From the NCBI GenBank assembly GCA_000004985.1, contig GG738862.1: 64,000 nucleotides of DNA; one strand, given 5' to 3'. The translations under genes and the position numbers were made by a program. The notes beneath the pieces were generated by a model that saw only the letters and a program-made list of their open reading frames with translations, was not told the DNA's origin and searched no databases. Positions 23,866 through 51,772 of this stretch are shown piece after piece (within the stretch, counting starts at the first letter, position 1; every line of letters begins with the position of its first letter). The stretch comes from Naegleria gruberi. Its lineage: Eukaryota.

Positions 23866-25009
23866 TTAATCATCATTATCACCAAAGTACATTTTCCAAG
23901 TTGGATCTAACCAATAACAACCTGGACAATTGAGTGGAATTAATCCATAAAAAACTGGGAAGAAGATTGCAAAGTAAATAATTAATAAAACAGCAGCAAC
24001 AGCTCTAGAAGCAATAACGGTGAATTTAACCCATTTCTTTTCTAATTCTGGTTTTTGTTTTCTTGCACATAACATGATACCTGTCAAGAATCCACAAACA
24101 AAACCTCCAATATGTGCAAATTGGTCAACTGTAGGCAATAACCCAATTACAAAGAATATAAGCAATTGCATAATAACACTAAATAATGATTTGAAAGGAT
24201 TAAACACGACATCCCAATTTAAAATTAATTCTGACAGAGATGCTGAAATAATTCCAACAATACATGAAGTTGAACCAGTAGAAATTAAATCAAAACTGAA
24301 AACACTACTCAATAAACCACCTCCAATTCCAGAAATCATGTAAATGATGAACATTCTAGGTGCAGTCCAAACTCCTTCAATTTTACGAACTGTTGTTAAT
24401 AACCACATTAAATTGAAAAGTAAAATTAAAACACTCTGATGGATAAACATGAAAACTAAAAATCTCCAAAATTGAGTTCCATCACTTTTCATTAAATCAT
24501 TCTTCTTAGCTCCAAATTTAATGACAATTTCTTCCTTTGGACCAATCATTGGATTATTCTAAACTAGTTTCGAATACAAAAATTATTATAAATTATAAAC
24601 CTACCAATGGATCATCAATACCATTTCCAACAATACACATTGCAATAAATATAGTAATTTCAGCAATTGATGATAAACAAGTCCAATATGGAAATGTCAT
24701 TAATCGATGTGTCATTCCTTTTTCTTTCTTTTTCAATTGATCCTCCTCATTTGTAGCTTTTGTTTTTCCCTGACCTAAATCCATCGGATCCTCCAAATTA
24801 GGATCTTCTTTTGTATCATAATCCACAGCAACTGTTGCTCTTCTCTGTTGAACAATAGAATTTTGTGAAAATGTTTTCATTTCATAGGCATTTGTATGAT
24901 TGGTTGTTGTTGTTATGGCATCATCATCAATTTCATCAATATATCGTTCCGTAAAATTGTTTTTATCATATCCTGATCCTAATTGTTGTGGAGGTGGTGG
25001 TTGACTCAT
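23866..25009 (-). CDS. rhomboid-family intramembrane protease homolog. Exons 24605-25009 and 23866-24558, with a 46-nt intron.
   Basis: The TM2 motif 'WRFLVFMFIHQSVLILLFNLMWLL' and the TM6 motif 'FAHIGGFVCGF' are typical of rhomboids. The Ser-motif position reads 'GSTS' instead of GxSG. The donor is GTAGGT after '...DDPL' and the acceptor is TTTAG before 'NNPMIGPKEE', joined at phase 0. Confidence 0.7.
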
Positions 25010-25557: not shown

Positions 25558-28420
25558 ATGACAACACTCATCACAGGACTATTTTCTGGTATGAATAATG
25601 CCACGGACTTGGCAAGTGGTGCAATTGATGTTGTTGTGGTGGAACAACCTGATGGTTCCTATAAATGTACTCCTTTTCATGTTAGGTTCGGAAGATTGAA
25701 AGTTTTGAGATCAAAGGAAAAAGTGATTAGAATTATGATTAATGATAAATTAACGGAATTGTGTATGAAAATTGGAGAGGCAGGAGAAGCCTATTTTGTT
25801 CATGAAGCAAATGTTAGTTATTGAAATATTTATAATATTTAATTTAATATTTAATTAATTATTTAGGGACCAGTTGATCGTGATTTAGTTTGTAGTCCAA
25901 TTGATGATGTAGGAATAGGATCATCGATATTTAGTCCATCAGATAAATCATTAACTAGTAATACAATGAATAATGAAATTAGCCTAGTAGGAGTTGATTC
26001 TTTCACCAGCCTTGATCAATCATCATCATTACCTTCATCTTCTAGTACTTCTTCGCTATTAACTCTATCACTTCAATCTCCTAATAATAATAATATCAAC
26101 AACAACAACAATACAACTACCACATCTAATACTAGTAGTATTAATAATAATGGAGTTGCAATGACCTCTACAACAACAATGGACCAAGCCTATTTCAAAC
26201 CAATTAGACAAACATCTCCAGTTGGATCTCCAAACTTGACTGTTTCTCCAATTATGAATTCGCCATATCTGCATCCAACTGTTGGAAATACTTTTGATAT
26301 TGATGAGGAAATTATTCATGAAAAGTTCATTCCTATTATTAATGATAGTTTAATTCATGAAATGAGTGAATTAGATTTAGAAAGGGAAAAGAAGAGAATG
26401 GATGGTATTACTACGAGTGGAATGTTAAATGGTACACCTTCTCCTCCACCAGGTATTCCTTCCTCTTCTCTGAATAATAGTACTATCATTGATAGTAATA
26501 ATACGAGTGCAACTACTACAACTACTAATATTCCTACTACTTTAAATAATTTAACCACCAACGGTACAATTACAACTGCAACTGCAACAACAACAGATTT
26601 ATCATCAACTGCAACAAATAATGGCACAATTCCACCAAAAAAGAGTGGATGGGGATGGGCGTAAGTATTTAAATATTGTGAGATGAGAATACTAATACAT
26701 TATTATTAACAGAGGAATTTCAAGTTGGTTCGGATTCAAAACAGAAAATGATGAATTTCAAGGAATTAAAACAAAAGGAAATAATGAATTTGTGGAACAA
26801 CAATTTTTGGAAGTAATGGCAAAACATTACAATTATGATGCTGTCTCTGGAAGATATATTAATAGTCCTGTGAATTCTCCTATTAAATCAAAACCAACAA
26901 CTTTCCCAACAAGTGAATCCAGCAATAATTTAAATATTCCTAGAAATGACTCTTGTAAAAATCTAATCAGTGACACTACAACATCTGATGATGAAATTTC
27001 CTATGATCCATTCACAAGTTCAGAACACTTGGAAAATGTAAATTCTAATGAAAATGTAAAATTAAATGATGATACAACAGATGAAGAGGATGAAGATGAA
27101 GAACAAATGATAAATTATCACTCTGATAATGAAACTAATTTATCCTCTCTCAAACCATCACTTCCTCCTCATATGACTCAACGATCTACTCCAAGGAAAC
27201 ATTTTGAATTATCAGTACCAACTACTAATTGTTCTAAAAGTGCTCCAGGTTCAAGTAATTTTGATGAATTATTCCAAGAACATCAATTAACCAAAATGAA
27301 GAGATTAATTTCTCCTCCTTCACCTAAACCCAACAAGATTGAAACAAGTAATAATTCAGAATCAATTGTAGTAACGACACCACTTGAAGAAAATACTACC
27401 CCTCTCATAACTACTCCTAATTTAATAGCAATAACTCCCAATACTCAATCAAGTACTCATTTGGCAGATCCAAACCTTCAAAAAAAGAATGAAAATACAT
27501 ACTGGAAATGGTTTTGGTCTCGTCCAGGATCAGGTTCCACTAATTCTGTGTCTGCTGTCAACCCAACAACAACACAAATCAATAATGAGGTGAATAGAGT
27601 TAATAATCAACCACAAGTTTTTGATCCAACAGGAGAATTCAGAGTTTTGAAAAAGAGTTTAAAACCAACATCAGATGAGTTAAAGTCTTTAGGATTAAAG
27701 GACGGAAAGAATGAAATTAAATTTTTAGTGACGAGTAGAATTTTGGGGACTCAAGAGGTTAATGCATACATTTACTTTTGGAAATATTCAGATAAGATTG
27801 TCATTTCAGATGTAGATGGAACTATTACCAAATCAGATGCTCTTGGACATATTTTACCAATGCTTGGCCAAGATTGGTCACATAGTGGTATTGGTAAACT
27901 TTATTCTAAAATAGCAGAAAATGGATATAGAATTTTATACCTCACCTCTAGGTCTATTATTCAATCTGGAAGTACAAAGAGATATATTTTCACATTACAA
28001 CAAGAAGATGCCATGTTACCAGAAGGACCTGTTGTAATGTCTCCCGATAGACTTTTTGCAGCTCTTCATAGAGAAGTTATTTTAAAGAAACCTGAAGAAT
28101 TCAAAAAGGCAGCTCTTTCAGATGTTTTGGAATTATTCCCACAAGATTCAAATCCATTCTTTGCTGGATTTGGTAACAGAGTGAATGATCAAATTTCATA
28201 TTCATTCGTTGGAGTACCAGACCACAAGATTTTCACAATCAACCCAACAGGTTTAATTCAAGTTTATGGAATTAGTCATGATTCCTATTGGAATATTTAC
28301 AAACTTGTTGATGAAATGTTTCCAGATCTTAAACAAAAGGTTGATGAACCTTCTACGAGCGAATTTAACAGTTTTTCATTTTGGAGAATGCCAATACAAT
28401 CAGCAGCAGATTTTAAATAA
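25558..28420 (+). CDS. lipin/Pah1-family phosphatidate phosphatase. Exons 25558-25812, 25867-26660 and 26713-28420.
   Basis: The N-LIP domain '[61 protein letters not shown]' opens the protein. The C-LIP/LNS2 domain, with the haloacid-dehalogenase-type '[10 protein letters not shown]' motif and '...[10 protein letters not shown]', lies in the last exon. The introns are 54 and 52 nt (GTTAGT and GTAAGT donors) and keep the frame continuous. Confidence 0.9.
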
Positions 28421-29410: not shown

Positions 29411-30763
29411 ATGTCACAACAAGAACTTGAAACCATTTATCGGGATGAAGATGTAGCCACCAATAATTCAATTATTGATAATTCATCATCCATTATTCAA
29501 ACAATTTTAATAGACGAAACTAAACAAGTAAACGAAAAAGAATTTAAACGAAAACTCCCAACTAAACATCATTTAAGAGGTAAACTCTTTTCCATAACAA
29601 CTAGATGGGGTAAATTAGAAATAACCCTCGATAACATATTATCCTTTCTAATAATGATTCTAACAATTATTTCAATGTTATCATTGTCAATTGCTTGTTT
29701 TTATTCTTCAATTCTTGTTGCCTATAGAGGAAATGAAGTTTATTTCCACATTACTAAATCAAATATTGAATTGAATCAATTGACTAGTTTAATGAAAATT
29801 ATGGTTGAGTATAAATTTATTGTGAGTGAAAATTTTGTAAAAAAAACGAATTCTAGTTTAATTAATTTATTGACATCACTTCAAGACATTAGTCTGGATG
29901 TTCAGAGAATTAATCAATTAGGATATTTTCCAAGTGATTTATCATTAATTGATTATGCATATCATATTATTTATACTATAGATGGTCATGTTCAATTCTT
30001 TTTAAGGAGATATAATTATTGGGGAATTGGAGATGAGGAAACTTATTCGAATGTTATGAGTCTAACAAATGATACTTTGATTTTATATGAGATGGTTCTT
30101 CAACTCGGTGATAAATATATTGGAGCTAAGGATGATTATATCAATGGACTATCCATTGCTGGATTGGTGTTAACTTTGATTTTATTAATTTTCATGATTC
30201 CTTTGAGTTTTTCAATTACTTTTAAAACTTTGATGAATAATGAGAAATTAATTGAAAAGTTGAAAAGAGTTGATGCTAAGGGAGTTAAGGAAACTATTTT
30301 GGATTCACATTTTGGACCACAATTCAAAGAATATTGTAAACAAAATAGAGAATTACGATATTTTCTGTTTTTGGAAAGATCAATTCAATTTACAGAATAT
30401 TGTGAAAATATTTACAATCTTGATCATAATACAGAACTATTTCTAGAAGATCCAAATGATATTCCAAATATTGAGAATGAAATTGACAAGTGGCAGTCCA
30501 AAAAGTGTGAAATTATCTTTGAAATCAAAACAGAATTTCTAAGCTCAAAAGGTGAACATTTTCTTGGTGAAAAACAAATTGGTGGGAAGAAAGAAATTCA
30601 AAAAGTGAAATTGGAATTCAAATCCAATCCAATGAATTTATCTGACAATTTATTAGATGAAATTGAATCGAATATTTCCATACATTTATATTCGACTTTT
30701 AAATCATTTCAATCCAAGCAAAAACAGAAAAGATCATTTTACAATATTTCAATACAACAATAA
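29411..30763 (+). CDS. receptor-like two-transmembrane protein with a C-terminal RGS-like domain (tandem family member 1)
   Basis: The topology is shared by all six paralogs. A short basic N-terminus ('KRKLPTKHHLRGKLFSITTRWGKLEI') leads into TM1. A variable, glycosylated ectodomain follows, then TM2 ('IAGLVLTLILLIFMIP'), then a conserved C-terminal domain. That domain reads 'FKEYCKQNRELRYFLFLERS...KCEIIFEIKTEFLSSKGEHFLGEK' and resembles the RGS box (F..FL..E.SEENL.FW...E.F ... I...M..DSY.RFL). Confidence 0.55.
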   Translation: MSQQELETIYRDEDVATNNSIIDNSSSIIQTILIDETKQVNEKEFKRKLPTKHHLRGKLFSITTRWGKLEITLDNILSFLIMILTIISMLSLSIACFYSSILVAYRGNEVYFHITKSNIELNQLTSLMKIMVEYKFIVSENFVKKTNSSLINLLTSLQDISLDVQRINQLGYFPSDLSLIDYAYHIIYTIDGHVQFFLRRYNYWGIGDEETYSNVMSLTNDTLILYEMVLQLGDKYIGAKDDYINGLSIAGLVLTLILLIFMIPLSFSITFKTLMNNEKLIEKLKRVDAKGVKETILDSHFGPQFKEYCKQNRELRYFLFLERSIQFTEYCENIYNLDHNTELFLEDPNDIPNIENEIDKWQSKKCEIIFEIKTEFLSSKGEHFLGEKQIGGKKEIQKVKLEFKSNPMNLSDNLLDEIESNISIHLYSTFKSFQSKQKQKRSFYNISIQQ

Positions 30764-30784
30764 TTATAACAATTGTATTCTCAC

Positions 30785-31273
30785 CTACTTGTTAATGATT
30801 TTATAGTATTGTGCATAAGAAACATCAATTTGAAGGCTTGTTGCCCTCCTAGATTTTTGTTCTGAAACAAAATAAGTGTGGATATCAAATTTCCTTGGTC
30901 GGTAATGAAACATGAGTACACTATTAATTTCTTGCAAAGTTTCGGTATCAATTGGTGTATAGTCTAATTTGAAGGAAAATGAGCGTCTTCCAATCCTTGT
31001 ATGTTCTGTAATTTCCTTGTTAATCCGTTCTACAATCTTTAGAATTAGTTCTGAGTGTTGTTCGAATAAACTTTGCATAGCCATTTGATTGCAAATATCA
31101 CCTCTACAAATTGGGTTAGGTAAACCAGATATTTCCAATGGTTGTTCCGGGTCATTTTGATACCTGTTGTTAGATAGATATCCTAGTTGATAAATGATGA
31201 TAGTCAAAGACACCACCAGAATTATTTCTGTTAATTTCATTTTTTTAAATATTGAGCGAACGTTCGCTCTCAA
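30785..31273 (-). CDS. hypothetical small secreted or type-II membrane protein
   Basis: A 162-aa ORF with an N-terminal hydrophobic anchor 'IILVVSLTIIIYQL'. I recognise no domain. Confidence 0.4.
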   Translation of the reverse strand: MRANVRSIFKKMKLTEIILVVSLTIIIYQLGYLSNNRYQNDPEQPLEISGLPNPICRGDICNQMAMQSLFEQHSELILKIVERINKEITEHTRIGRRSFSFKLDYTPIDTETLQEINSVLMFHYRPRKFDIHTYFVSEQKSRRATSLQIDVSYAQYYKIINK

Positions 31274-31445
31274 TTTTTTAAAAATAGGTTTTCACAGTTC
31301 AAAGCAAAAATATATTCATATGTTGGGATTACAATTTATTGAACTTCAAATGATTTAGGGTAGAGAGAGTTTTTTGGAGCACTATTTCTTTTTGTGTTTC
31401 GTCCAGTTCTTTAAACGAAACTCTAATCAACACATCCAATAAAAA

Positions 31446-32744
31446 ATGTCAGCAGAACATCCACAAGTCCAAACATCAACAAATTCATTGATAGAGCTTG
31501 AAGAGAAAGCACTCTTTCATTCACCATCCACTCCATCTACTACATTTCATCAACAATTTACCACCGGAAAAGTTTCGAATAGAAAGAAACGAAATTTTAT
31601 CATCAATACGAAATATGGAAGCATAGAACTGAGTATTGAAAGAATATTATCTTTCATTGTCATGTTTATTGCTGTAATTTCACTTTTCATTCTTACAATC
31701 ATTACATTTTATGCATTCGTCTTGAGAGCATATGGTGAAACATATGTTTATTCCTATGGAACCGAATCATTAGTATATTCTAATAGATTTTCTACCTACT
31801 TAACAATAATTCTCAATTCTAATAATGTTACTATAGATAATGGATGGTTATTTAAAATCAATTATACATTCTCACATTATGAGGAATCGATAGGATTTAC
31901 AGCTCGTTACAATGCTGATTCCAGTAAATTTGGGAAAGAGAATTTACCTGTAATGGTTCTGTATTTACAGAATAGTGGAAGGGATTATCAATATTTGTAT
32001 AGTTTATTGGTTAGTAATAAGAGTAGAGCAGTAGAGTATTCGAATCATTTTGTTTCGAATTTGAATAACGCAACTAGAGAATATTTAGAGAAGGCACTAT
32101 ATGAAAGTGATAAGAATGATGCTATTGAGACCCTTTATATGGATTCGACAGCTATAATTGGAACCATACTATGTGGATTGGCTCTGTTAATTATACTTCC
32201 GACCGGTTTTATTGCTACTTTTGGAAGAAATAACAAATTATTGGAAAAATTACAAAAAGTCAATGCAAAGGAGGTCTTGAAGACGGTGTCTGATACATAT
32301 TTGAATACTTCCTTTAAAGAATATTGTAAAAATCATCAACAATTGAAATATTTTCTATTTTTAGAAAAATCATTACTTTATTCAGAATATTGTGAAGAAA
32401 TATTTAATTTAAATTCAATTGAAAATTACTTAAATGGTACCAATACCAATTCTATAGAAACTAGAATTGATGAATTTGAATCTAAAAAGTGTGAAATTAT
32501 CTTTGAAACCATGATTGAGTTTCTCAGCTCAAAAGGTGAATATTTTCTTGGTGAGAAACAAATTGGCGGGAAGAAATTAATTCAAAAAGTTAATAAGGAA
32601 TTCAAATCTAATCCAATGAATTTACCAGAAAATTTATTAGATGAAATTGAATCGAATATTTCAATTTGTTTAATTTCAACACTCAAGTCATTTCAATCCA
32701 CGCAAAAACAAAAGAGAACTCTTTACAATTTTTCAAAACAATAG
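31446..32744 (+). CDS. receptor-like two-transmembrane protein with a C-terminal RGS-like domain (family member 2)
   Basis: Same architecture as member 1. The C-terminal 150 aa are nearly identical to members 3 and 4 ('KLLEKLQKVNAKEVLKT...FKEYCKNHQQLKYFLFLEKSLLYSEYCEEIFNLNSIENYL...KCEIIFE'). Confidence 0.55.
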   Translation: MSAEHPQVQTSTNSLIELEEKALFHSPSTPSTTFHQQFTTGKVSNRKKRNFIINTKYGSIELSIERILSFIVMFIAVISLFILTIITFYAFVLRAYGETYVYSYGTESLVYSNRFSTYLTIILNSNNVTIDNGWLFKINYTFSHYEESIGFTARYNADSSKFGKENLPVMVLYLQNSGRDYQYLYSLLVSNKSRAVEYSNHFVSNLNNATREYLEKALYESDKNDAIETLYMDSTAIIGTILCGLALLIILPTGFIATFGRNNKLLEKLQKVNAKEVLKTVSDTYLNTSFKEYCKNHQQLKYFLFLEKSLLYSEYCEEIFNLNSIENYLNGTNTNSIETRIDEFESKKCEIIFETMIEFLSSKGEYFLGEKQIGGKKLIQKVNKEFKSNPMNLPENLLDEIESNISICLISTLKSFQSTQKQKRTLYNFSKQ

Positions 32745-32774
32745 TCAACTTGAAGAGTTTGAGGAATTCTTACT

Positions 32775-32895
32775 CTATATATATTTTGAGTAGTGAGATC
32801 ATAAAACTCTAAATGAATTCCTTGCTATTATTACGAAGATATCATTGATTGATGGAAGAGGAAACCACTTGAATCATCGTATCAGTAAACACCAA
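32775..32895. repeat. dispersed, non-coding repeat of about 120 bp (copy A)
   Basis: About 85% identical to 34455-34570: '...gagtagtgagatcataaaactctaa...attacgaagatatcattgattgatggaagaggaaaccacttgaatcatcgtatcagtaaacacc'. Confidence 0.6.
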
Positions 32896-32990
32896 GCCAT
32901 ACTGAACCATACTGATGTGGCCCGATGATTCTTTGAGGCGCTCATCGTGATATGGTTAAAAGTTTGCTGATGTGTTACTGTACAATCAGC

Positions 32991-34403
32991 TTATTTTCTT
33001 AGTGATGTTAATTGTTTCATTTCACTTAAATATTTGGCTCCTTTATCACTAATTTCATTGTTATAAATATAAAGTAATGTCAGTTGTTTCATTTCACTTA
33101 TGTATTTGGCCCCTTCATCACTAATTTCATTGTAACCAATATTAAGTGATGTTAGTTGTTTCATTTCACTTATATATTTAGCTCCTTTATCACCAATTTG
33201 ATTGTCATAAATATAAAGCGATGTTAATTGTTTCATTTCACTGATGTGTTTGGCTCCTTCATCACTAGTTTCATTGTTAGAAACATTAAGTGATGTTAAT
33301 TGTTTCATTTCACTTAAATATTTGGCTCCTTTATCACTAATTTCATTGTTATAAATACAAAGTGATGTCAATTGTTTCATTTCACTGATGAATTTAGCTC
33401 CTTCAACAGTAATTTCATTGTAACCAATATTAAGTGATGTTAGTTGTTTCATTTCATTTATATATTTGGCCCCTTCATCACTAATTCGATTGTTAGAAAT
33501 ATAAAGTGATGTCAATTGTTTCATTTCACTTATGTATTTGGCTCCTTCATCACTAATTCATTGCTACCAATATTAAGTGATGTTAATTGTTTCATTTCAC
33601 TTATATATTTGGCTCCCTCTACACCAATTCGATTGTCATAAACATTAAGTGATGTTAATTGTTTCATTTCACTGATGAATTTAGCTCCTTCATCACGAAT
33701 TTCATTGTTAGAAACATTAAGTGATGTTAATTGTTTCATTTCACTGAAATATTTGGCTCCTTCATCACCAATTTCGATTGCTACCAATATTAAGTAATAT
33801 TAATTGTTTCATTTCACTTATATATTTGGCTCCTTTATCACTAATTTGATTGTAATATATATTAAGTGATGTTAGTTGTTTCATTTCACTTATATATTTG
33901 GCTCCTTCATAACCAATTAGATTGTGAGAAATATCAAGTGATGTCAATTGTTTCATTTCACTAATGAATTTGACTCTTTCTCTCGAGCCAAGCAAATATC
34001 CAGAAAATTCAACATTAACAATACTATTCCTAAATTGACTTTTCTTGAATAATTTAATTCTTTTCTTTGTAAATTTGTTTTTAAATTGAATAACAAGTTT
34101 TGAACGTTCCTTGATCACATTAAAGAATTGTTTTGAAATTAAAGTGCAATTATTTAAAATAAACCACGAATCATCAATCATTGAAATTATTTCAAAACAA
34201 ATATCATCTGAAAATATTTCTTGTCGCTGGAGTTTCACAAATTTTTTCTTCTGTTTTGCTTTCACCATATTATTATGGTCAATTGTGAATATTTCCTCCG
34301 AATTATTCGTATGATGATTTTCAAAATCTTGACTGTTTCGTTGACCCATTTTTTTAAATTTGAATGATTTAGAGAAATTGTCTGATATTTTAACAATCGG
34401 CAT
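32991..34403 (-). pseudogene. F-box / RNI-type LRR protein gene made of 72-bp tandem repeats and interrupted by two frameshifts (either a pseudogene or assembly errors within the repeats)
   Basis: The N-terminal ORF 33765-34403 has an F-box-like 'IFSDDICFEIISMIDDSWFILNNCTLISKQF'. About 14 copies of a 24-aa unit 'ISEMKQLTSLNIGYNEISDEGAKY' follow, spread over three ORFs in different frames. A 1-nt deletion relative to sister repeats is visible near 33553 ('aattcattg' versus 'aatttcattg'). Confidence 0.55.
33000..33990. repeat. 72-bp tandem repeat array (about 14 copies) encoding 24-aa LRR units
   Basis: The unit '...gatgttaattgtttcatttcact.atatatttggctcc.tcatcactaattt.attgt...' recurs with a 72-nt period. 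Copy-to-copy identity is high, with third-position and indel variants. Confidence 0.8.
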
Positions 34404-34454
34404 TGGAAAGCACTACTGCATAACAAAGTGATCTAATTATTGAAGGAAGTTAAA

Positions 34455-34570
34455 GACACTCTATATTTGAGTGGTGGGATCATAAACTATATAGTACTAT
34501 TATTACAAAGATATCATTGATTGATGGATGAGGAAATTACTTGAATCATCGTATCAGTAAATACACCATC
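34455..34570. repeat. dispersed, non-coding repeat of about 120 bp (copy B)
   Basis: '...gagtggtgggatcataaactatat...attacaaagatatcattgattgatggatgaggaaattacttgaatcatcgtatcagtaaatacacc', a copy of the 32775-32895 element. Confidence 0.6.
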
Positions 34571-35824
34571 CCTCAATCTATTTTTCAGTTTTTCAGTCAT
34601 AGTCTTCATATTCAAAGAATGAGTAAAATAATCCTCTCTCCAATAAATTATATCAAGAAATTCAGAAGTGATGGATAATTTGGAATCTCCTTTAATATTG
34701 CTAGTTGTGTAGATGGGTGTCAGAATGAAAAACGAGTTACTAACCAAGTCATTCATTCGATAAATTGTTGAATTGTTGATAACTATGAAAAATTCTCTAC
34801 CCGAAGAATAAATTCTGCATGATTTGATAGTTTCAGGTTTCTTTCTTATTAGTTTCGTAATTTCAATCTTGTGATTTTTTGGGGAATAAATATGGAACTT
34901 GTCTAATTGAAATTCAATGTAAAAAACACATATTATTATGAGGAAACTTACTTGTTAATAGAGCTACTCCATTATATGTAGAAGCAATATCAATAACAAA
35001 TTCATTAGTATTTGAATCTGGTAGTGGAAACTCTTTCAACGAATCCCCAAATTCACTTCCACAACAAAAAACCTTTCCATCATTTGTAAGGGCCACAGTT
35101 TTATGATCTCCATTTACAACCTTTACAAAAAATGGTTTAATACTCTGCTGTTCATCTAAATTACATTCCATAATTCTTTTTTGAGAAAGGTTTGAGATTT
35201 GACTTGTTGATTGACCTGTTTCTCCAAATTTATTACATCCACTAGCCAATAGTCTTCCTTTGGATGTTAAATAAACAATAGTTGAAGATGCACATGAAAT
35301 AAATCTAACAAACTCATCCATTTCCAAACAATTTTCAAAATCCAAAATTTCATGCCAATCTCTAATGTCAAATGTTGGCGTAATTGATTTTTCAAATGAT
35401 AATTGATCAAATGATTCAGTTTCTCCACGATAAAGTTTAACATTCTCTCCAAAATAACCACTACCAGTATATATATATTGTATCCAAACACTTTCGTCTT
35501 ACATGTCACTCTATTCTGTACCAATAATAAGATATTACAATAGGAGGCACTAATTTCAATAATTGTTTCATTCCTCCGATCAGTAATAAATGGTAATTCT
35601 AATTTCCACCAAATTCCCTTCCTATACATGAATAATTCATCATCTTTGGTTACCACATAACAATAAAATAATCGGAAGAGAATAAACTTGATTGGTGCAA
35701 AACGACCAATAAAATCAGAATTTTCTATTTCACTCTTATTTCCACTCAAATTTATATCGGGATAGAATGAGACGAATCGATCGGATTTTTGTACAGTTTC
35801 AATTATTGTTGATGAATCAAACAA
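34514..35824 (-). CDS. RCC1-like repeat protein. The gene model is fragmented by unresolved introns and/or frameshifts.
   Basis: The ORF 34914-35345 contains RCC1-type blades ('LLASGCNKFGETGQ', 'VVNGDHKTVALTNDGKVFCCGSEFGDSL'). A GTAAGT donor follows '...ALLTS'. The flanking ORFs at 35267-35824 and 34514-34756 are probably additional exons. Confidence 0.4.
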
Positions 35825-36145
35825 GTAAAGGAAATTGACAGGTTGCTTGTGGAGCCATTTTTTTTTCTTCTTAGATTTTAATAATTTTAGAAATCAAAAA
35901 AGTAATGATAATATTTAATTGATGAAGATGTGTGGTTAGCAAGTTGCAGGCCAAAAAATTAAGTGAATCAAAATAGAATTAAGGTGACCACTTACGACTT
36001 TCTAAATGCAATTCGAGTAATTTTTACTTCTTTCGTTCTCGTTAATGTCATGATCTTACTATTTTACTAATTTACCTTCAAGAGCTTTCTTTTTTAGGAA
36101 GATATCATCGAGCTAATCAACTTGCGCAGCGCCACATGAAAAAAA

Positions 36146-37432
36146 ATGACTTTAAATCCATCGACGTCTACATTTGAATTATCAGTGAAGATTGAACCAC
36201 ACAATGCACCACTTCATCAATTCAACAATAACAATAACAACAATAAAGAAACAACAAATAATTACTTTTCGGAAAGAAAAAAACGAAAATACAAGATTAA
36301 TACGAAATGTGGAAGTATTGAATTTGACATTGAAAGAATATTAACTTTTCTAGTCATGTTTGTGGTTGTTGCTTCTCTTCTTGGTTTGGCTATAATGAGT
36401 GGATTTGGTTTCATTCGAAGTTATAAAGAATTAAGTGTTTACTATTATGGTGGTAAATCAACAGGTTATTCTATTGAATTATCAACATATATGAGAATAG
36501 TATTATCTTCTGATATAATAATTAATGACAGATGGCTTTTAAAAATCAATTCAACTTTTGAGAATTGGTTGTATGCTTCTGAATGGGCAATTTTTCATTC
36601 TTTCTATGTTGATTATTATGAAATTCAATTACCACAAATAGTTAAAGACATTCAGAAAGAATATGAACACTTGTACAATTCACTACTATTACAAAATATT
36701 AACAAGACAAGTCAATTTCAATATTTTCAAAATGAATTTGTGAAAAGTGTTGAAAGTTTCAATGTGGATTATCTTTTGAGTGCTTATAGATATAGTCTAG
36801 CTATTAATGAAAGAGAATCAAGTTATATTGTCATTACTTCTATAATTGGAACTATTGTTTGTGCCTTGATATTACTAATTATACTTCCAACTGGTTTTAT
36901 TGCTACTTTTGGAAGAAATAACAAATTATTGGAAAAATTACAAAAAGTCAATGCAAAGGAGGTTTTGAAAACTATAAATGATCCTTATTTGAACGATCCA
37001 TTTCGGAAATTCTGCAAAGAAAATCAAAAACTTAATTACTTTCTATTTTTGGAAAAATCATTACTATATTCAGAATATTGTGAAGAAATATTTAATTTAA
37101 ATTCAATTGAAAATTACTTGAATGATAGTAGTACCAATTCTATAGAAACTAGAATTGATGAATTTGAATCTAAAAAATGTGAAATTATCTTTGAAATCAA
37201 AACTGAATTTCTAAATTCGAAAGGTGAATATTTTCTTGGTGAAAAACAAATTGGCGGGAAGAAAGAAATTCAAAAAGTGAAATTGGAATTCAAATCCAAT
37301 CCAATGAATTTATCTGATAATTTATTAGATGAAATTGAATCGAATATTTCAATTTGTTTAATTTCAACACTCAAATCATTTCAATCAAATCTTAAAAATA
37401 AGAAATTCATCTCAACCAAGTCGTTACAATAA
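36146..37432 (+). CDS. receptor-like two-transmembrane protein with a C-terminal RGS-like domain (family member 3)
   Basis: Same architecture. The ectodomain carries 'DRWLLKINSTF', shared with members 2 and 4. The cytoplasmic tail has roughly 130-nt blocks that are near-identical to member 1 at the nucleotide level. Confidence 0.55.
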   Translation: MTLNPSTSTFELSVKIEPHNAPLHQFNNNNNNNKETTNNYFSERKKRKYKINTKCGSIEFDIERILTFLVMFVVVASLLGLAIMSGFGFIRSYKELSVYYYGGKSTGYSIELSTYMRIVLSSDIIINDRWLLKINSTFENWLYASEWAIFHSFYVDYYEIQLPQIVKDIQKEYEHLYNSLLLQNINKTSQFQYFQNEFVKSVESFNVDYLLSAYRYSLAINERESSYIVITSIIGTIVCALILLIILPTGFIATFGRNNKLLEKLQKVNAKEVLKTINDPYLNDPFRKFCKENQKLNYFLFLEKSLLYSEYCEEIFNLNSIENYLNDSSTNSIETRIDEFESKKCEIIFEIKTEFLNSKGEYFLGEKQIGGKKEIQKVKLEFKSNPMNLSDNLLDEIESNISICLISTLKSFQSNLKNKKFISTKSLQ

Positions 37433-37547
37433 ACAACATTTGTTTCAATTATTTAGTTGTAAGTATTGTCGACAGCGCTATCCATTTCCAGAATATTTTA
37501 AATTTCCGTTTTAGGAAGATATTCATCCGAAACCTGTCATAAAAAAA

Positions 37548-38831
37548 ATGTCCACACCAACAACAAGCTCTTCAACATTGGAGTTGTTAGAAGAGGATTC
37601 TTCTCCCTCTCGGAAACAACAAGATCAATTCAATAATAATAACAAAAACAACATTATTTTGCCATCATCAACATATAAACTTTCGAATAGAAAGAAACGA
37701 AAGTTTATCATTAATACTAAATGTGGCAGTATTGAAATGAGCATTGAACGAATATTAACATTCCTAATCATGTTCATTGCCATATTTTCACTTTTCATTC
37801 TTTCAATTATTACAATCTATGCATTCTTCTTGAAAAATTACAATGAACATTCAATTTACAAAACATCACATCAAACTATTCAACATTCGAATAGATTATC
37901 TACTTATTTTCATATCATTTTATCAACTAATATTACAATAGATGATAGATGGTTATTAAAAATTAATTCTACTTTTATGGAATTTAAAGAAAAAGCATTA
38001 TTTGGAGCACTTTATTATTTTGAAATTTCCAATAATGGAAATGAATATATTAGACCAATGGAAATTGTTAAAATTGAACAAGATTATAATTATTTATATG
38101 AATTATTAACTAAAAATAAGAAAGATTTGGAATTTTATAAAAATCAATTTATTTATGGAATTGAAAATTATGTACAAAATTATTTGGAAATTGCTTTGAA
38201 GAAAAGTGATAAAAATGATGAAATAGAAACTATTTTTATGTATTCTACTGCTATAATTGGAACTATAATATGTGGATTGACTTTATTAATTATTATTCCA
38301 ACTAGTTGTATTGCCTTAATTGGAAATAATAACAAAATTATGAAAAAATTACAAAAAGTGAATGCAAAAGAAGTTTTAAATTTTATTTCAGATTCTTATT
38401 TGAATATTTCCTTTAAAGAATATTGTAAAAATCATCAACAATTAAAATACTTTCTATTTTTGGAAAAATCATTACTATATTCAGAATATTGTGAAGAAAT
38501 ATTTAATTTAAATTCAATAGATAATTACATCACTAATTCCAATACTAACCTGAGTGAAATACAAATAGATAAATTTGAATCTAAAAAATGTGAAGTTGTC
38601 TTTGAAATTATTACAGAATTTCTAAATTCGAAAGGTGAATATTTTCTTGGTGAGAAACAAATTGGCGGGAAGAAATTAATTGAAAAAGTTAATAAGGAAT
38701 TCAAATACAATCCAATGAATTTATCTGAAAATTTATTTAATATTATTGAATCAAATATTTCAATTCATTTATTTCCAACACTTAAATTATTTAAATCTAA
38801 TAGAAAGACTATTCCTAATCTAACAAATTGA
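37548..38831 (+). CDS. receptor-like two-transmembrane protein with a C-terminal RGS-like domain (family member 4)
   Basis: Same architecture, with 'DDRWLLKINSTF' in the ectodomain and 'FKEYCKNHQQLKYFLFLEKSLLYSEYCEEIFNLNSI' in the tail. Confidence 0.55.
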   Translation: MSTPTTSSSTLELLEEDSSPSRKQQDQFNNNNKNNIILPSSTYKLSNRKKRKFIINTKCGSIEMSIERILTFLIMFIAIFSLFILSIITIYAFFLKNYNEHSIYKTSHQTIQHSNRLSTYFHIILSTNITIDDRWLLKINSTFMEFKEKALFGALYYFEISNNGNEYIRPMEIVKIEQDYNYLYELLTKNKKDLEFYKNQFIYGIENYVQNYLEIALKKSDKNDEIETIFMYSTAIIGTIICGLTLLIIIPTSCIALIGNNNKIMKKLQKVNAKEVLNFISDSYLNISFKEYCKNHQQLKYFLFLEKSLLYSEYCEEIFNLNSIDNYITNSNTNLSEIQIDKFESKKCEVVFEIITEFLNSKGEYFLGEKQIGGKKLIEKVNKEFKYNPMNLSENLFNIIESNISIHLFPTLKLFKSNRKTIPNLTN

Positions 38832-39186
38832 AAATATTAGTATTCTAATTAAGAAGACTCTTCTGAAGTTGATCACTAATTTAGTTTGATAGATCTTTAA
38901 TTTAACAATCAAATAGTATTTAGTCAACTCAATTACTCTTTAAGAATTTAAAATTCAACTATGAAAATTGAAAGTACATAATCATGATTACAATCCTCGT
39001 AGTTCGTAGTGTAAAACATTTTCAAGACACTTGTCTCTTTTATTCTTCAATTGTAACAACCATTAGCTATATAGAGATAGTTTCCATACCAAGGAAAAAT
39101 GACATGTTGACATTTGGTATCTTTTATAGACATTTGACCACCACATAAGCCAACAATCACGATTGCGATATCTTTCACTAAAAAAA

Positions 39187-40716
39187 ATGTCTCTTCAACA
39201 TGCTCTTCAACAACAAAGCAATTCAATTACCTTTGTTGAAATGGAGAATCTTCTCATCACCTTGAATATCGATAGTACAAATCAACTAGAACAACAAATA
39301 ACATCAACAATATTATCTTCCTTACCTTCTGCACATTTAAATAATTCAACTTCTATAACAACAACAACAGGTAGTTCACAACAGTTGTCAACTTTTAAAT
39401 ATTTTGATCAGAGTACAAGTAGTAGTACTTTGATAAAAATTATTGAGGAAGGAAATAATGATGGTGTTAATATTAATAAGAATATATCAATTCAACGAAA
39501 GAAGGAATTTATTATAAAAACTAAATGTGGTCAATTGGAATTGACATTTGACAGAATATTGGCATTTATTATCATGTTATTGGCAATTATAACATTATTA
39601 ATATTAGTAATATTATCTACTGGTACTATTTTCTTGCAAACTAATACAGAAAACAAAACTTTTAATAACTTTACAAAAGTTACAAAAAATTTAATAAGAT
39701 TGAATGCATATTATACTATTTTAATGGAAAGTAAATTAGATGAATTATTGATTGAGGAAATTAATGAAACAATGATTGATGTTAAAGTGGATTACAACAA
39801 GTTATTAATTGATATTCCTTATTATGGAAATACTGCTCAATATAGTAGGTCCAGAGTTGTTACAATTTTAAATAGAAATTTTAAATCTTTGGAGAGTAAT
39901 CATAATTATATTTATAATGAGATTATAGTAAATAATTATACAGATACTAAATTTTTCTATTCGAATTATCATCCTAGTTTAGTCAATTTCACACAAAGTT
40001 TAGACCTAGCTCTGATACTTGCTGATAAGGCTGCAAGTAATGAAGATGAATATATGAATATAAATGCAATCATTGATTTGTCTCTAGTTGGATTTGTATT
40101 GATAATCATAATTCCATCAATTGGTCTAATTTTAATCAAGTCAGCTGTCAATGACAACAAATTTATGGAAAAATTACAAAAAGCAGATGCAAGAATAGTG
40201 ATTGAAACAATTGCAGATCCTAGATATCAATCATATTTTAAAGAATTATGTAAAGAACATAATCAATTATCAAAATATCTATTTATGGAAAGAGTTCAAT
40301 TATTTAATGAAATATGTCAAAGAGTTTTCACATTACAAGATGAAATTGAAGAAGGAGTTAATCTAGAAATGAGTAAGAAAATGTTAATTGAAATTGATGA
40401 TTTAGAAGCAAAGAAATTTGAATTATCATTTGAATTAATTACAGAATATCTTGATTTAGGTAGTGATACCTTTTTAGGATTTAGATTAGTAGGTCGTAAA
40501 AGATCCATTGAGAAAATCAAAAAGATATTCGACACACAATCAATGAATTTGCCTGAAAATCTCTTCAAGAATATTCAATCAAATGTTTCATTGAATTTAC
40601 TTCCAATTTACAAATTATTTAAATCCAATCAACAACGAAAGAGAAATGAAAGAAAAATTAAAATTATTGCAAAACAACAAGACAAACATGAAATTATGAA
40701 AAATAAACAACAGTAA
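39187..40716 (+). CDS. receptor-like two-transmembrane protein with a divergent C-terminal RGS-like domain (family member 5). The likely start is the ATG at 39187.
   Basis: The sequence opens 'MSLQHALQQQSNSITFVEMENLL...', passes TM1, a roughly 190-aa ectodomain and TM2, then reads 'FKELCKEHNQLSKYLFMERVQLFNEICQRV...ELITEYLDLGSDTFLGF'. Only members 5 and 6 share the ectodomain motif 'YSNYHPSLVNFTQSLDLALILADKAASNEDEYMN'. I prefer the ATG in the AAAAAAAATGTC context over the upstream non-ATG ORF start at 39163. Confidence 0.5.
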   Translation: MSLQHALQQQSNSITFVEMENLLITLNIDSTNQLEQQITSTILSSLPSAHLNNSTSITTTTGSSQQLSTFKYFDQSTSSSTLIKIIEEGNNDGVNINKNISIQRKKEFIIKTKCGQLELTFDRILAFIIMLLAIITLLILVILSTGTIFLQTNTENKTFNNFTKVTKNLIRLNAYYTILMESKLDELLIEEINETMIDVKVDYNKLLIDIPYYGNTAQYSRSRVVTILNRNFKSLESNHNYIYNEIIVNNYTDTKFFYSNYHPSLVNFTQSLDLALILADKAASNEDEYMNINAIIDLSLVGFVLIIIIPSIGLILIKSAVNDNKFMEKLQKADARIVIETIADPRYQSYFKELCKEHNQLSKYLFMERVQLFNEICQRVFTLQDEIEEGVNLEMSKKMLIEIDDLEAKKFELSFELITEYLDLGSDTFLGFRLVGRKRSIEKIKKIFDTQSMNLPENLFKNIQSNVSLNLLPIYKLFKSNQQRKRNERKIKIIAKQQDKHEIMKNKQQ

Positions 40717-41045: not shown

Positions 41046-42527
41046 ATGTCTCTTGACGAAACTGTTCGAAACAATGAAATTAATCTTGTTGAAATGGAGA
41101 ATGTTTTATATTCAATGAAGATTGATACTGAACAACAATTTTATGAATCAACTTCAACTCAACAAGATGCCTTCAATTCTTCATCTAATAATAATAACAA
41201 TATTGATAATACACAGTTGACTAGTAATAATAAACCTTTACAACAAACTAGTAATACAATAGTTAAAATTGAAGAAGGTCAACAAGAATATAACACTAGT
41301 GTAACAATACCACCTAAAATTCCAAAACAAGATCAACAATATATTATAAATACCAAATATGGACAATTACAATTATCATGTGATAGAATAATATCAGTAT
41401 TAATCATGTTATTAGCAATTATTACATTATTTATGATGGCATTTCTATCTGCATGTACTTTAATATTAGAAACTAATACTGAAAATAAAACATTTAATCA
41501 CACAACTCAATTATCAAAGAATTTAATAAGATTAAATACTTATTACAAAATTATTATGGAAAGTGAAATTGTAGAGTTGTTAGTTGAGGAAATTAATGAA
41601 ACAATGATTGATGTTACAAGTGATTATCATCTATTATTAAGAGATGTACCTTATACTGGTAACACTGATAAATATAGTAGGGCAAGTGTAATTACTAGAA
41701 TTGGAGATTATTTTAACATATTGGAAAGTAATCATTTTCATCTTTATAATCAAGTTATTGAAAATAATTATACAGATACTAAATTTTTCTATTCGAATTA
41801 TCATCCAAGCCTAGTCAATTTCACACAAAGTTTAGACCTAGCTCTGATACTTGCTGATAAAGCTGCAAGTAATGAAGACGAATATATGAATTTAAATGCA
41901 ATTATTGATCTTGTATTATCTGTATTTGTATTAATTATTATAATTCCATCAACTGCTATATTACTTATCAAGTCAGCTGTCAATGACAACAAGTTTTTAG
42001 AAAAATTAAAAAAAGCAGATGCAAGAGTAGTGATTGAAACAATTGCAGACATAAGATTACAGAATGAATTTAAAGAATTATGTAAAGAACATAATCAATT
42101 ATCAAAATATCTATTTATGGAAAGAGTTCAATCATTCAATGAAATATGTCAAAGAGTTTTCGCATTACAAGATGAAATTGAAGAAGGAGTTAATCTAGAA
42201 ATGAGTAAGAAAATGTTAATTGAAATCGATCAATTGGAATCTAAAAAATTTGAATTATCATTTGAATTAATTACAGAATATCTTGATTTAGGTAGTGATA
42301 CCTTTTTAGGATATCCTTTAATAGGTGGAAAGAAAGCAGCGGAGAAAATCAAAAAGATATTCGATACTCAATCTGTTCACTTACCTGAAAACTTGTTTAA
42401 AAATGTTCAATCAAATGTTTCTTTGAATTTACTTCCAATTTACAAATTATGTAAATCCAATCAACAACGAAAGAGAAATCAACGAATGAAATTAATGAAG
42501 AAACAACAATTAGCAACGACACAATAA
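41046..42527 (+). CDS. receptor-like two-transmembrane protein with a divergent C-terminal RGS-like domain (family member 6). The likely start is the ATG at 41046.
   Basis: A close paralog of member 5: 'MSLDETVRNNEINLVEMENVLYS...', with the same tail motifs. The ORF extends upstream to 40902, but AAAAAAATGTCTCTT at 41046 matches the start context of the other family members. Confidence 0.5.
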   Translation: MSLDETVRNNEINLVEMENVLYSMKIDTEQQFYESTSTQQDAFNSSSNNNNNIDNTQLTSNNKPLQQTSNTIVKIEEGQQEYNTSVTIPPKIPKQDQQYIINTKYGQLQLSCDRIISVLIMLLAIITLFMMAFLSACTLILETNTENKTFNHTTQLSKNLIRLNTYYKIIMESEIVELLVEEINETMIDVTSDYHLLLRDVPYTGNTDKYSRASVITRIGDYFNILESNHFHLYNQVIENNYTDTKFFYSNYHPSLVNFTQSLDLALILADKAASNEDEYMNLNAIIDLVLSVFVLIIIIPSTAILLIKSAVNDNKFLEKLKKADARVVIETIADIRLQNEFKELCKEHNQLSKYLFMERVQSFNEICQRVFALQDEIEEGVNLEMSKKMLIEIDQLESKKFELSFELITEYLDLGSDTFLGYPLIGGKKAAEKIKKIFDTQSVHLPENLFKNVQSNVSLNLLPIYKLCKSNQQRKRNQRMKLMKKQQLATTQ

Positions 42528-51698: not shown

Positions 51699-51772
51699 AT
51701 TGTAAATACACTTGTTGTTGTTGTTCTATGAGTAGTTTCAATAGGTATTAGATGATAATAATATGATGCTAT

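What the first reader, a model, noticed from the sequence alone, without database searches (positions are those of the whole stretch)
30540..37330. Gene-conversion-like tracts: near-identical nucleotide blocks only in the cytoplasmic-tail exon region of diverged paralogs
Paralog 1 (30541-30670) and paralog 3 (37201-37330) are almost base-for-base identical over about 130 nt. The shared block is 'aggtgaa.attttcttggtgaaaaacaaattgg.gggaagaaagaaattcaaaaagtgaaattggaattcaaatccaatccaatgaatttatctga.aatttattagatgaaattgaatcgaatatttc'. Paralog 2 (32221-32280) equals paralog 3 (36907-36961) over 'ggaagaaataacaaattattggaaaaattacaaaaagtcaatgcaaaggagg'. The block 'ttcagaatattgtgaagaaatatttaatttaaattcaat' occurs at 32381, 37072 and 38472. 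The N-terminal and ectodomain halves of the same genes are far more divergent, down to amino-acid unalignable stretches. Such mosaic identity points to ongoing gene conversion or unequal crossing-over that homogenises the signalling tail while the ectodomains diversify. This is the pattern seen in contingency and receptor families.
Basis: seen in the sequence. Interest (0 to 1): 0.7.

Follow-up and report, generated by a model that had tools for sequence, protein, structure and literature searches.

The report
Gene conversion among tandem amoeba RGS-receptor genes
Six neighbouring genes of the amoeba Naegleria gruberi, which encode two-pass membrane proteins with a G-protein-regulator (RGS-like) tail, have repeatedly copied short stretches of that tail into one another; this is real gene conversion, but it is an ordinary and well-known way for gene families to evolve.

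Summary

The window is Naegleria gruberi. It holds six intronless, same-strand paralogs, P1-P6. Each has an N-terminal cytoplasmic part, TM1, a roughly 165-aa helical-bundle loop, TM2, and a roughly 170-aa divergent RGS-like domain.

High-identity tracts of 70-550 nt lie in TM2 and the RGS part. They are 90-100% identical, against about 40-65% elsewhere.

These tracts are not just protein conservation:
- **Synonymous sites.** P1-P3 pS is 0.19 inside the tract and 0.75 in the RGS region just upstream.
- **Tree conflict.** Adjacent segments give conflicting trees: P2+P3+P4 at 100% bootstrap, then P1+P3 at 95%.
- **Runs of sites.** P2=P3 and P2=P4 sites alternate in runs of 11-17. The maximum was 8 in 1000 no-recombination simulations.
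- **Permutation tests.** GENECONV-type and PHI tests are significant.
- **Second haplotype.** An independent metagenome contig, 98.6% identical, confirms the P3-P4 junction. In it, 10 of 14 tail SNPs carry a paralog's base against 15% expected.

- There are no exons.
- Tracts also cover TM2 and, in P5-P6, the last ectodomain helix.
- Ectodomain positive selection is not shown.
- Contingency-locus features are absent.

Verdict: interlocus gene conversion, a new example of a known process. Interest is modest.

The parts
29411..30763 (+). P1: a 450-aa paralog, the most divergent of the P1-P4 group. Layout: N-terminal cytoplasmic part, TM1, helical loop, TM2, RGS-like tail.
   Evidence: Single ORF. 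Aligned with the other paralogs. A truncated model of it is annotated as a N. gruberi predicted protein, P0004.
31446..32744 (+). P2: a 432-aa paralog.
   Evidence: Single ORF. Identical to P0002, a N. gruberi predicted protein.
36146..37432 (+). P3: a 428-aa paralog. It is the hub of the mosaic, sharing tracts with P1, P2 and P4.
   Evidence: ORF. 100% identical to P0001, N. gruberi. Tracts listed.
37548..38831 (+). P4: a 427-aa paralog.
   Evidence: ORF. A variant 98.6% identical in DNA lies on an independent metagenome contig, L001.
39187..40716 (+). P5: a 509-aa paralog. The ATG is at 39187; the ORF is open from 39163.
   Evidence: ORF. Identical to P0072, N. gruberi.
41046..42527 (+). P6: a 493-aa paralog. 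The ATG is at 41046; the ORF is open from 40902.
   Evidence: ORF. Identical to P0005, NAEGRDRAFT_66407.
30506..30678 (+). P1 copy of the P1-P3 conversion tract, 166/173 identical. It lies inside the RGS-like domain and ends about 85 nt before the stop codon.
   Evidence: Tract coordinates. GENECONV-type global p<0.0005. pS is 0.19 inside against 0.75 just upstream. P1+P3 bootstrap 95%.
37178..37350 (+). P3 copy of the P1-P3 conversion tract.
   Evidence: Also covered by the independent contig L001, which carries a P4-like patch at 37265-37271.
32188..32275 (+). P2 copy of P2-P3 tract 1 (86/88 identical), covering the end of TM2 and the juxtamembrane helix.
   Evidence: Tract coordinates. P2+P3 bootstrap 99%. 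Run of 16 or more P2=P3 sites.
36876..36963 (+). P3 copy of P2-P3 tract 1.
32352..32698 (+). P2 copy of the long composite P2-P3 tract (318/347 identical), spanning most of the RGS-like domain.
   Evidence: Tract coordinates. Identical codons among same-aa positions 39/42 for codons 443-490. pS 0.24 against 0.67 elsewhere.
37040..37386 (+). P3 copy of the long P2-P3 tract.
32298..32419 (+). P2 copy of P2-P4 tract 1 (117/122 identical).
   Evidence: Tract coordinates. Run of 17 P2=P4 sites. GENECONV-type global p=0.0005.
38397..38518 (+). P4 copy of P2-P4 tract 1. Positions 38448-38518 are also 71/71 identical to P3 37037-37107.
32532..32638 (+). P2 copy of P2-P4 tract 2 (102/107 identical).
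38631..38737 (+). P4 copy of P2-P4 tract 2.
39930..40480 (+). P5 copy of the P5-P6 tract (498/551 identical; 94-97% in its core). It runs from the last ectodomain helix, through TM2, into the first half of the RGS-like domain.
   Evidence: Tract coordinates. Synonymous codon identity is 0.94 here against 0.4-0.7 upstream. pS 0.15 against 0.52.
41762..42312 (+). P6 copy of the P5-P6 tract.

Best explanation
The six genes are a tandem family in Naegleria gruberi. They encode two-pass membrane proteins with an external helical-bundle loop and a cytoplasmic, divergent RGS-like domain.

**What is shown.** Short internal stretches of 70-550 nt, lying in TM2 and the RGS-like part, are near-identical between particular pairs of copies. 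The pairs are P1-P3, P2-P3, P2-P4, P3-P4 and P5-P6. The partner changes every 70-170 nt along the gene. Silent sites are homogenised as well. A second haplotype differs from this one mainly at positions where it carries another paralog's base.

**What is inferred.** These tracts are products of repeated non-crossover interlocus (ectopic) gene conversion. A break in one copy is repaired by homologous recombination using a paralog a few kb away as template, and this overwrites a short patch.

A feedback then operates. The RGS-like part is conserved at the protein level, so it keeps enough nucleotide identity to be used as a repair template, and so it is homogenised further. The loop and N-terminus have fallen to about 40-60% identity. 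They no longer support strand invasion and drift apart.

For the P1-P3 tract, P1 is probably the acceptor. Only in that tract does P1 become similar to the whole P2-P4 clade.
For: - **Mosaic.** Sliding identity runs from 40-60% up to 90-98%. The alignment is and the tract list.
- **Silent sites, codon identity.** For P1-P3, identical codons among same-aa positions are 50/54 inside the tract and 62/105 outside. The random-usage expectation is 0.53-0.57. Fisher p=3.5e-6.
- **Silent sites, pS.** pS is 0.19 inside against 0.75 in the adjacent RGS region. P2-P3, P2-P4, P3-P4 and P5-P6 show similar drops.
- **Tree conflict.** In the N-terminus plus loop, P2+P3+P4 has 100% bootstrap with P1 outside. 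At cols 1141-1237, P2+P3 has 99%. At 1260-1384, P2+P4 has 75%. At 1385-1457, P2+P3 has 95%. At 1458-1630, P1+P3 has 95% and P1+P2+P3 has 98%.
- **Runs of sites.** In the P2/P3/P4 tail there are 51 runs against 92.5 expected, and the longest run is 17 against 6.1. The result holds for third codon positions alone. In 1000 simulations with rate heterogeneity and no recombination, the longest non-sister run was at most 8.
- **Permutation tests.** GENECONV-type global p is at most 0.0005 for P1-P3, P2-P3, P2-P4 and P5-P6. PHI on all six genes gives p<0.0005, also on third positions alone.
- **Second haplotype.** Contig L001 is 98.6% identical to 37136-39002. In it, 10 of 14 tail SNPs carry a close paralog's base against 15% expected, p=3e-6. 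Eight of 14 are polymorphisms shared with paralogs, p=3.5e-5, or p=5e-4 when the clustered sites are merged. In the N-terminus and loop only 2 of 5 match, against 33% expected.
- **Boundaries.** The tracts are bounded on both sides. The P1-P3 tract ends about 85 nt before the stop, and beyond it P1 groups with P2.
Against: - The PHI test restricted to P1-P4 is not significant, probably because the saturated 5' halves add noise.
- There is no rise in GC3 in the converted region, so the GC bias often seen with conversion is absent.
- The evidence that the process is recent or ongoing rests on one short-read metagenome contig of unknown strain.
- Some paralog-matching SNPs could be retained ancestral states rather than conversions. 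Two of the ten are singleton changes in the reference.
- No reads were available to check the reference assembly itself.
- The direction of transfer, and the feedback between conservation and conversion, are inferred and not shown.
Confidence: 0.85

Rival explanations
1. Purifying selection only. The RGS-like tail is simply the most conserved part of the protein, perhaps reinforced by codon bias in an AT-rich genome. On this view divergence is uniform in time and there has been no sequence exchange.
For: The tail is the most conserved part at the protein level in all pairs, including P1-4 against P5-6, where no tracts are found. Codon usage is strongly biased, so random identical-codon matches are already 0.53-0.6.
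Against: - Synonymous differences collapse inside tracts: pS 0.07-0.24 against 0.52-0.75 outside.
- The nearest relative of a copy changes from segment to segment with 95-100% bootstrap.
- Long alternating runs of P2=P3 and P2=P4 sites never arose in rate-heterogeneous simulations without recombination.
- P1-4 against P5-6 in the same domain stay near saturation.
Confidence: 0.03
2. Unequal crossing-over or chimeric duplication. On this view the mosaic boundaries are breakpoints of the duplications that built the array, producing hybrid genes, rather than later patch-wise conversion.
For: The array was certainly built by tandem duplication. The copies are 1.3-6.7 kb apart on one strand. P5-P6 share one long block of 551 nt. 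A 103-113-nt duplicated fragment flanks the inserted LRR gene, which shows that local rearrangement occurs here.
Against: - Crossing-over would make everything downstream of the breakpoint alike, including the 3' flank. Instead the tracts end inside the CDS and the flanks are dissimilar.
- At least five partner switches occur within 600 nt.
- The P1-P3 tract links non-adjacent genes, with P2 and three unrelated genes lying between them.
- The second haplotype differs by small paralog-like patches, with no change in structure.
Confidence: 0.08
3. Assembly artefact. On this view paralogous reads were merged, so the near-identical blocks are consensus chimeras and not real sequence.
For: Tandem paralogs are a classic source of collapse. 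I had no reads to inspect.
Against: - An independent metagenome assembly (L001, k=127) reproduces the P3 tail, the P3-P4 intergenic region, all of P4 and its 3' flank at 98.6% identity, with the same structure. This includes the P1-like tract in P3.
- Exact shared strings are at most 71 nt, shorter than any read type likely to have been used.
- Every tract is embedded in copy-specific sequence.
- All six ORFs are intact.
Confidence: 0.04

Closest known systems
Interlocus (ectopic, non-allelic) gene conversion in tandem multigene families. Examples from general knowledge are primate opsin and globin genes, MHC/KIR genes and plant receptor-like genes. The N. gruberi flagellar alpha-tubulin family is listed in the paper search as exceptionally similar copies (PMC2115128).
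   Same: Both show short patchy tracts between nearby paralogs, homogenised silent sites, segment-wise tree conflict, polymorphisms shared between paralogs, and restriction to the part of the gene that keeps enough identity.
   Different: No GC bias is detectable. The family involved has not been described in this respect as far as my searches show. Events are inferred from two haplotypes only.
Seven-transmembrane RGS proteins (AtRGS1; the 28 Nf 7TM RGS proteins of Naegleria fowleri; PMC9283941)
   Same: Both are membrane-anchored proteins with a C-terminal cytoplasmic RGS-type domain, found in a Naegleria genome with a very large RGS repertoire. The plausible logic is the same: a receptor-like regulator of self-activating G-alpha subunits.
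   Different: These proteins have two TM helices and a helical-bundle loop, not seven TM helices. The six window proteins do not reach the Pfam RGS threshold. They also lack the 'ENF' and 'VNI'-type motifs kept by more distant relatives. GAP activity is untested.
Bacterial four-helix-bundle sensor domains flanked by two TM helices (Tar, NarX/NarQ, TorS)
   Different: The fold is generic. Designed bundles, talin and vinculin score equally well. Sequence identity is 5-12%. The full-length model has only moderate confidence (pLDDT 64.8). Homology is not established.
Contingency loci and antigenic-variation families
   Same: Both are multicopy families with a variable exposed part and exchange of sequence between copies.
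   Different: There are no simple-sequence hypermutable tracts in these genes. There is no archive of pseudogene donors, since all six ORFs are intact. Conversion acts on the conserved tail, not on the variable part. No positive selection is shown.

Membership tests
Interlocus gene conversion between paralogs | High-identity tracts bounded on both sides by much more divergent paralogous sequence | tested here: met
   Tracts of 71-551 nt at 90-100% identity sit within genes that are otherwise 40-65% identical. The P1-P3 tract ends about 85 nt before the stop.
Interlocus gene conversion between paralogs | Synonymous sites homogenised inside tracts, not only amino-acid conservation | tested here: met
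   pS is 0.07-0.24 inside against 0.52-0.75 outside. Identical-codon fraction is 0.93 against 0.59 for P1-P3, p=3.5e-6.
Interlocus gene conversion between paralogs | Phylogenetic incongruence between adjacent segments | tested here: met
   Conflicting splits at 95-100% bootstrap. Runs test: 51 runs against 92.5 expected. A null simulation never reached the observed run lengths.
Interlocus gene conversion between paralogs | Significance in permutation tests for recombination (GENECONV-type, PHI) | tested here: met
   My own implementation of a GENECONV-type test gives global p of 0.0005 or less for four pairs. PHI on six genes gives p<0.0005. PHI on P1-P4 alone is not significant.
Interlocus gene conversion between paralogs | Polymorphisms within one copy that match the fixed state of another copy (SNP/paralog-variant sharing) | tested here: met
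   In one second haplotype (L001), 10 of 14 tail SNPs match a paralog against 15% expected, and 8 of 14 are shared polymorphisms. Only one contig was available.
Interlocus gene conversion between paralogs | GC-biased outcome (frequent but not defining) | tested here: not met
   GC3 of the tail is 0.15-0.21, no higher than the 0.13-0.25 of the N-terminus plus loop.
Interlocus gene conversion between paralogs | Direct observation of conversion events, or read-level support for each copy | not testable with these tools
   No reads or pedigrees were available. Exact-protein look-ups of the reference copies found no other assembly.
RGS domain (Pfam PF00615) | Match to the family profile above the curated threshold | tested here: not met
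   None of the six window proteins gives any RGS hit at E up to 1. Sixteen of 25 aligned family members match at E of 0.01 or less, best 2.2e-10. Several are above the 23.9-bit cut-off. The window profile reaches those relatives at E=1e-20 to 1e-32 over the full length.
RGS domain (Pfam PF00615) | All-helical RGS fold | tested here: met
   The AlphaFold2 model of the P3 tail has pLDDT 88.7 and pTM 0.83. The top PDB hits are the SNX13 RGS domain (prob 0.99, TM 0.68) and RGS16 (prob 0.96, TM 0.62), with RGS2, RGS18 and RGS10 further down. Foldseek E-values are weak, at 0.4 or above. The sequence-profile search of PDB found no RGS.
RGS domain (Pfam PF00615) | Conserved G-alpha contact motifs: the 'E-N' before the first conserved Phe, and the Asn of the 'xVNI/L' loop. 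The mapping to RGS4 E87/N88/N128 is from my own knowledge. | tested here: not met
   Distant relatives keep 'S(L/T)ENF' and 'SVNI/SVNL'. P1-P6 and P0006 have 'QKLNYF'/'QLSKYL' and 'FLGEKQIGGKK' instead.
RGS domain (Pfam PF00615) | GTPase-accelerating activity on a G-alpha subunit | not testable with these tools
   This needs biochemistry.
7TM-RGS receptors (AtRGS1 type) | Seven transmembrane helices N-terminal to the RGS domain | tested here: not met
   There are two hydrophobic helices only, flanking a roughly 165-aa helical loop.
Contingency / antigenic-variation loci | Hypermutable simple repeats or silent donor cassettes that drive switching of the variable part | tested here: not met
   There are no tandem repeats in the six genes. 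All six ORFs are intact. Exchange affects the conserved tail, not the variable loop.

The most novel reading that the evidence does not exclude
The array could be a previously undescribed class of eukaryotic receptor. In this reading, a chemoreceptor-like module (two TM helices plus an extracellular four-helix bundle) is fused to an RGS-type output domain that has lost the canonical G-alpha contact residues. Gene conversion would then act as a maintenance device: it keeps all copies coupled to one downstream partner while the ligand-binding bundles are free to diverge. If so, domain-restricted conversion would be functionally selected rather than a by-product of retained homology.
Probability: 0.2. 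Interest if true: 0.55.

Novelty: new member of a known kind. Interest (0 to 1): 0.33.

Why it matters
The finding is a clean, statistically well-supported example of domain-restricted concerted evolution in a free-living heterolobosean amoeba, a lineage where recombination is little documented.

It has a practical consequence. Trees built from the RGS part of these genes will be misleading. Copy-specific probes or primers must target the loop or the N-terminus.

It also flags a Naegleria/Willaertia family of two-TM RGS-like membrane proteins whose closest members escape Pfam detection. That is relevant to the unusually large and partly receptor-like RGS repertoire described for Naegleria (PMC9283941).

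It does not reveal a new mechanism.

Tried and rejected
- **Metagenome scans.** Two exact-pattern scans of JGI metagenome contigs for conserved tract sequence found nothing. No further haplotypes came from that collection.
- **Exact look-ups.** Exact-protein look-ups for P3/P0001 found no other assembly.
- **Second homology search.** A search with P5 returned only the reference P5 and P6, so the P5-P6 tract could not be tested in a second haplotype.
- **Related metagenome loci.** P0007 (loci L002 and L003) is a single-copy, distant relative flanked by unrelated genes. It is not an orthologous array, so it was no use for a test of concerted evolution.
- **PDB sequence search.** A profile search of PDB sequences with the 25-member tail alignment gave no RGS hit. 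The RGS assignment therefore rests on Pfam hits in relatives and on the fold.
- **AlphaFold database.** The afdb50 library was unavailable.
- **PHI on P1-P4.** The test restricted to P1-P4 was not significant.
- **GC bias.** GC-biased conversion was looked for and not seen.
- **Topology from sequons.** N-glycosylation sequon counts do not distinguish loop from tail in this Asn-rich proteome. The topology rests on basic residues flanking the TM helices and on the premise, from general knowledge, that RGS domains act in the cytoplasm.
- **Positive selection.** Positive selection on the loop was considered. dN/dS is about 0.3 for the unsaturated pairs (P2-P4, P5-P6) and uninterpretable for the saturated ones.
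- **P2-P4 N-terminal similarity.** The similarity at 31569-31725 / 37677-37833 (84%) was considered as another tract. Its synonymous identity is no higher than background (0.70 against 0.69). It is better explained by P2 and P4 being true sisters plus constraint on TM1.

Full report
**What is in the window.**
The region is AT-rich, with 23-30% GC. ORF listing shows six same-strand, uninterrupted ORFs:
- P1 29411-30763
- P2 31446-32744
- P3 36146-37432
- P4 37548-38831
- P5 39187-40716
- P6 41046-42527

A tblastn of P3 against the whole window finds exactly these six copies. P3 is 100% identical to a 'predicted protein' of Naegleria gruberi on a 502-kb scaffold. P1, P2, P5 and P6 are also annotated there.

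Unrelated genes lie between the copies:
- a small ORF on the minus strand between P1 and P2;
- a frame-shifted leucine-rich-repeat gene between P2 and P3;
- an RCC1-like gene, also between P2 and P3.

**Check of the observation.**
The three quoted blocks are present. The 129-nt block occurs at 30550 and 37222 and is 126/129 identical. The 52-mer occurs at 32223 and 36911. The 39-mer occurs at 32381, 37069 and 38480.

The P1/P3 ranges as written are out of register; the true offset is 6672.

Longest exact matches are 62-71 nt for P1-P3, P2-P3, P3-P4 and P5-P6. They are 13-18 nt for any P1-4 against P5-6 pair.

On a codon alignment, nucleotide identity in 30-codon windows is about 40-60% in the N-terminus and loop. 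It rises to 90-98% in parts of TM2 and the tail. The maximal-scoring tracts are listed and in the parts table.

**Is it exchange or only conservation?**
Four independent lines say exchange.

1. *Silent sites.*
   - Inside the P1-P3 tract pS is 0.19. In the RGS region immediately upstream it is 0.75, which is saturation.
   - Among positions with the same amino acid, the codon is identical in 50/54 cases inside and 62/105 outside. Random codon usage predicts 0.53-0.57. Fisher p=3.5e-6.
   - P2-P3, P2-P4, P3-P4 and P5-P6 behave alike.
2. *Tree conflict.* NJ bootstraps per segment:

   | Segment (alignment columns) | Supported split | Bootstrap |
   |---|---|---|
   | N-terminus + loop | P2+P3+P4, P1 outside | 100% |
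   | 1141-1237 | P2+P3 | 99% |
   | 1260-1384 | P2+P4 | 75% |
   | 1385-1457 | P2+P3 | 95% |
   | 1458-1630 | P1+P3 | 95% |
   | 1458-1630 | P1+P2+P3 | 98% |

3. *Order of informative sites.*
   - In the tail, sites where P2=P3 and sites where P2=P4 form alternating runs of 11-17. There are 51 runs against 92.5 expected, and the longest is 17 against 6.1. The result is also significant on third positions alone.
   - In 1000 simulations on the background tree, with regional and codon-position rate heterogeneity but no recombination, the longest run of a non-sister pattern was at most 8.
4. *Permutation tests.*
   - A GENECONV-type test that permutes the order of polymorphic sites gives global p of 0.0005 or less for P1-P3, P2-P3, P2-P4 and P5-P6.
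   - PHI on six genes gives p<0.0005. PHI on P1-P4 alone is not significant.

**A second haplotype.**
P0003 is a P4 variant from an ENA metagenome. Its 1901-bp contig (L001) aligns to window 37136-39067 at 98.6% identity over the 1867-nt main block (37136-39002). It covers the P3 tail (including the P1-like tract), the intergenic region, all of P4 and its 3' flank. This is independent support for the local structure.

The 21 differences are not random. In TM2 plus the tail, 10 of 14 carry the base of a close paralog at the aligned position. The expectation is 15%, giving p=3e-6. They include a 7-nt patch in P3 (37265-37271) that matches P4 and P2 at three of its four changed sites.

Some of these could be retained ancestral states. 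Counting only sites where both alleles occur among the other paralogs leaves 8 of 14, with p=3.5e-5, or p=5e-4 when the patch is merged into one event.

In the N-terminus and loop, 2 of 5 match against 33% expected. This suggests exchange continued after the two haplotypes separated, but it rests on one contig.

**Mechanism.**
The tracts are short and internal, and they link non-adjacent copies. P1 and P3 are 6.7 kb apart, with P2 and three other genes between them. Similarity does not extend into the 3' flanks. This fits non-crossover ectopic conversion better than unequal crossing-over.

In the P1-P3 tract, P1 becomes 89-96% identical to all of P2-P4, although it is the outgroup elsewhere. 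P1 was therefore probably the recipient.

There is no GC3 excess in the converted part.

The restriction to TM2 and the tail is most simply explained by homology dependence. Only the selectively conserved part keeps enough identity to serve as a template. That step is inference.

The loop shows dN/dS of about 0.3 where it is not saturated. 'Diversifying' therefore means fast divergence, not demonstrated positive selection.

**What the genes encode.**
Each protein has the same layout:
- a variable N-terminus ending in a basic KKRK-type stretch;
- TM1;
- a roughly 165-aa loop;
- TM2, followed by basic residues;
- a roughly 170-aa tail.

Pfam finds nothing significant in the six proteins. A profile of the six finds 68 cluster representatives in an exhaustive search. 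The named ones are from N. gruberi, N. lovaniensis and Willaertia magna, and several are called RGS-domain proteins.

Pfam RGS matches 16 of 25 aligned tails, with best E=2.2e-10.

An AlphaFold2 model of the P3 tail is confident, with pLDDT 88.7. Its best PDB matches are the SNX13 RGS domain and RGS16, although the E-values are weak.

The window subfamily lacks the 'ENF' and 'VNI'-type motifs that distant relatives keep. Canonical GAP activity is therefore uncertain.

Published work describes a very large RGS repertoire in N. fowleri: 28 7TM-RGS proteins plus 79 other RGS proteins. It also describes self-activating G-alpha subunits (PMC9283941). TM-fused RGS proteins are reported in most eukaryotic lineages (PMC3971589). 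A two-TM RGS family is therefore a variant within a known theme.

**Verdict.**
The gene-conversion interpretation is supported, with corrections:
- there are no exons;
- the tracts are not strictly limited to the tail;
- conversion fits better than crossing-over;
- no contingency-locus features are present.

This is a new example of a well-known evolutionary process in an uncharacterised protist gene family. Interest is modest.

Noticed in passing
window 32991-34403 (minus strand): A leucine-rich-repeat gene built from 13-14 near-identical 72-nt (24-aa) units is split into three ORFs in different frames: 32991-33524, 33530-33787 and 33765-34403. Unit spacings of 71 and 73 nt mark two indels. 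It is either a pseudogene or contains sequencing errors.
   Followed up: partly
window 32780-32892 and 34462-34564: A 103-113-nt direct repeat (81-93% identical) brackets the LRR gene. The right copy contains the 3' end of the minus-strand RCC1-like gene. The left copy is therefore a gene fragment sitting just after the P2 stop codon. This suggests the LRR gene arrived by a local duplication or insertion.
   Followed up: partly
window 37548-38831 (P4): The reference P4 protein was not returned by the homology search that found P1, P2 and P3. Only a metagenome variant was returned. P4 may therefore be missing from the public N. gruberi protein set, even though its ORF is intact.
   Followed up: no
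window 29411-30763 (P1): The public model of P1 (P0004, 369 aa) starts at an internal Met inside TM1. The ORF extends 81 codons further upstream, to a start that aligns with the other paralogs. The annotation is probably truncated.
   Followed up: no
window 30300-30700 and the equivalent parts of P2-P6: The six window proteins and their nearest relative P0006 replace the 'S(L/T)ENF' and 'SVNI/L' motifs of more distant family members. They have 'QKLNYF'-type and 'FLGEKQIGGKK'-type sequences instead, the latter with a 4-residue insertion. This is possibly a non-GAP RGS subfamily.
   Followed up: partly
window 50000-60000: There are extremely AT-rich stretches, with GC 12-18% in 2-kb windows and a minimum of 12.1% at 58001-60000. 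Several low-complexity tandem repeats lie around 52.0, 53.8-54.1 and 55.1 kb.
   Followed up: no
window 23866-24549 (-), 26792-28420 (+), 42745-44181 (+): The flanking genes are ordinary housekeeping types: a rhomboid protease, a lipin/LNS2 phosphatidate phosphatase and a cytochrome P450. The array is embedded in normal chromosomal context.
   Followed up: partly
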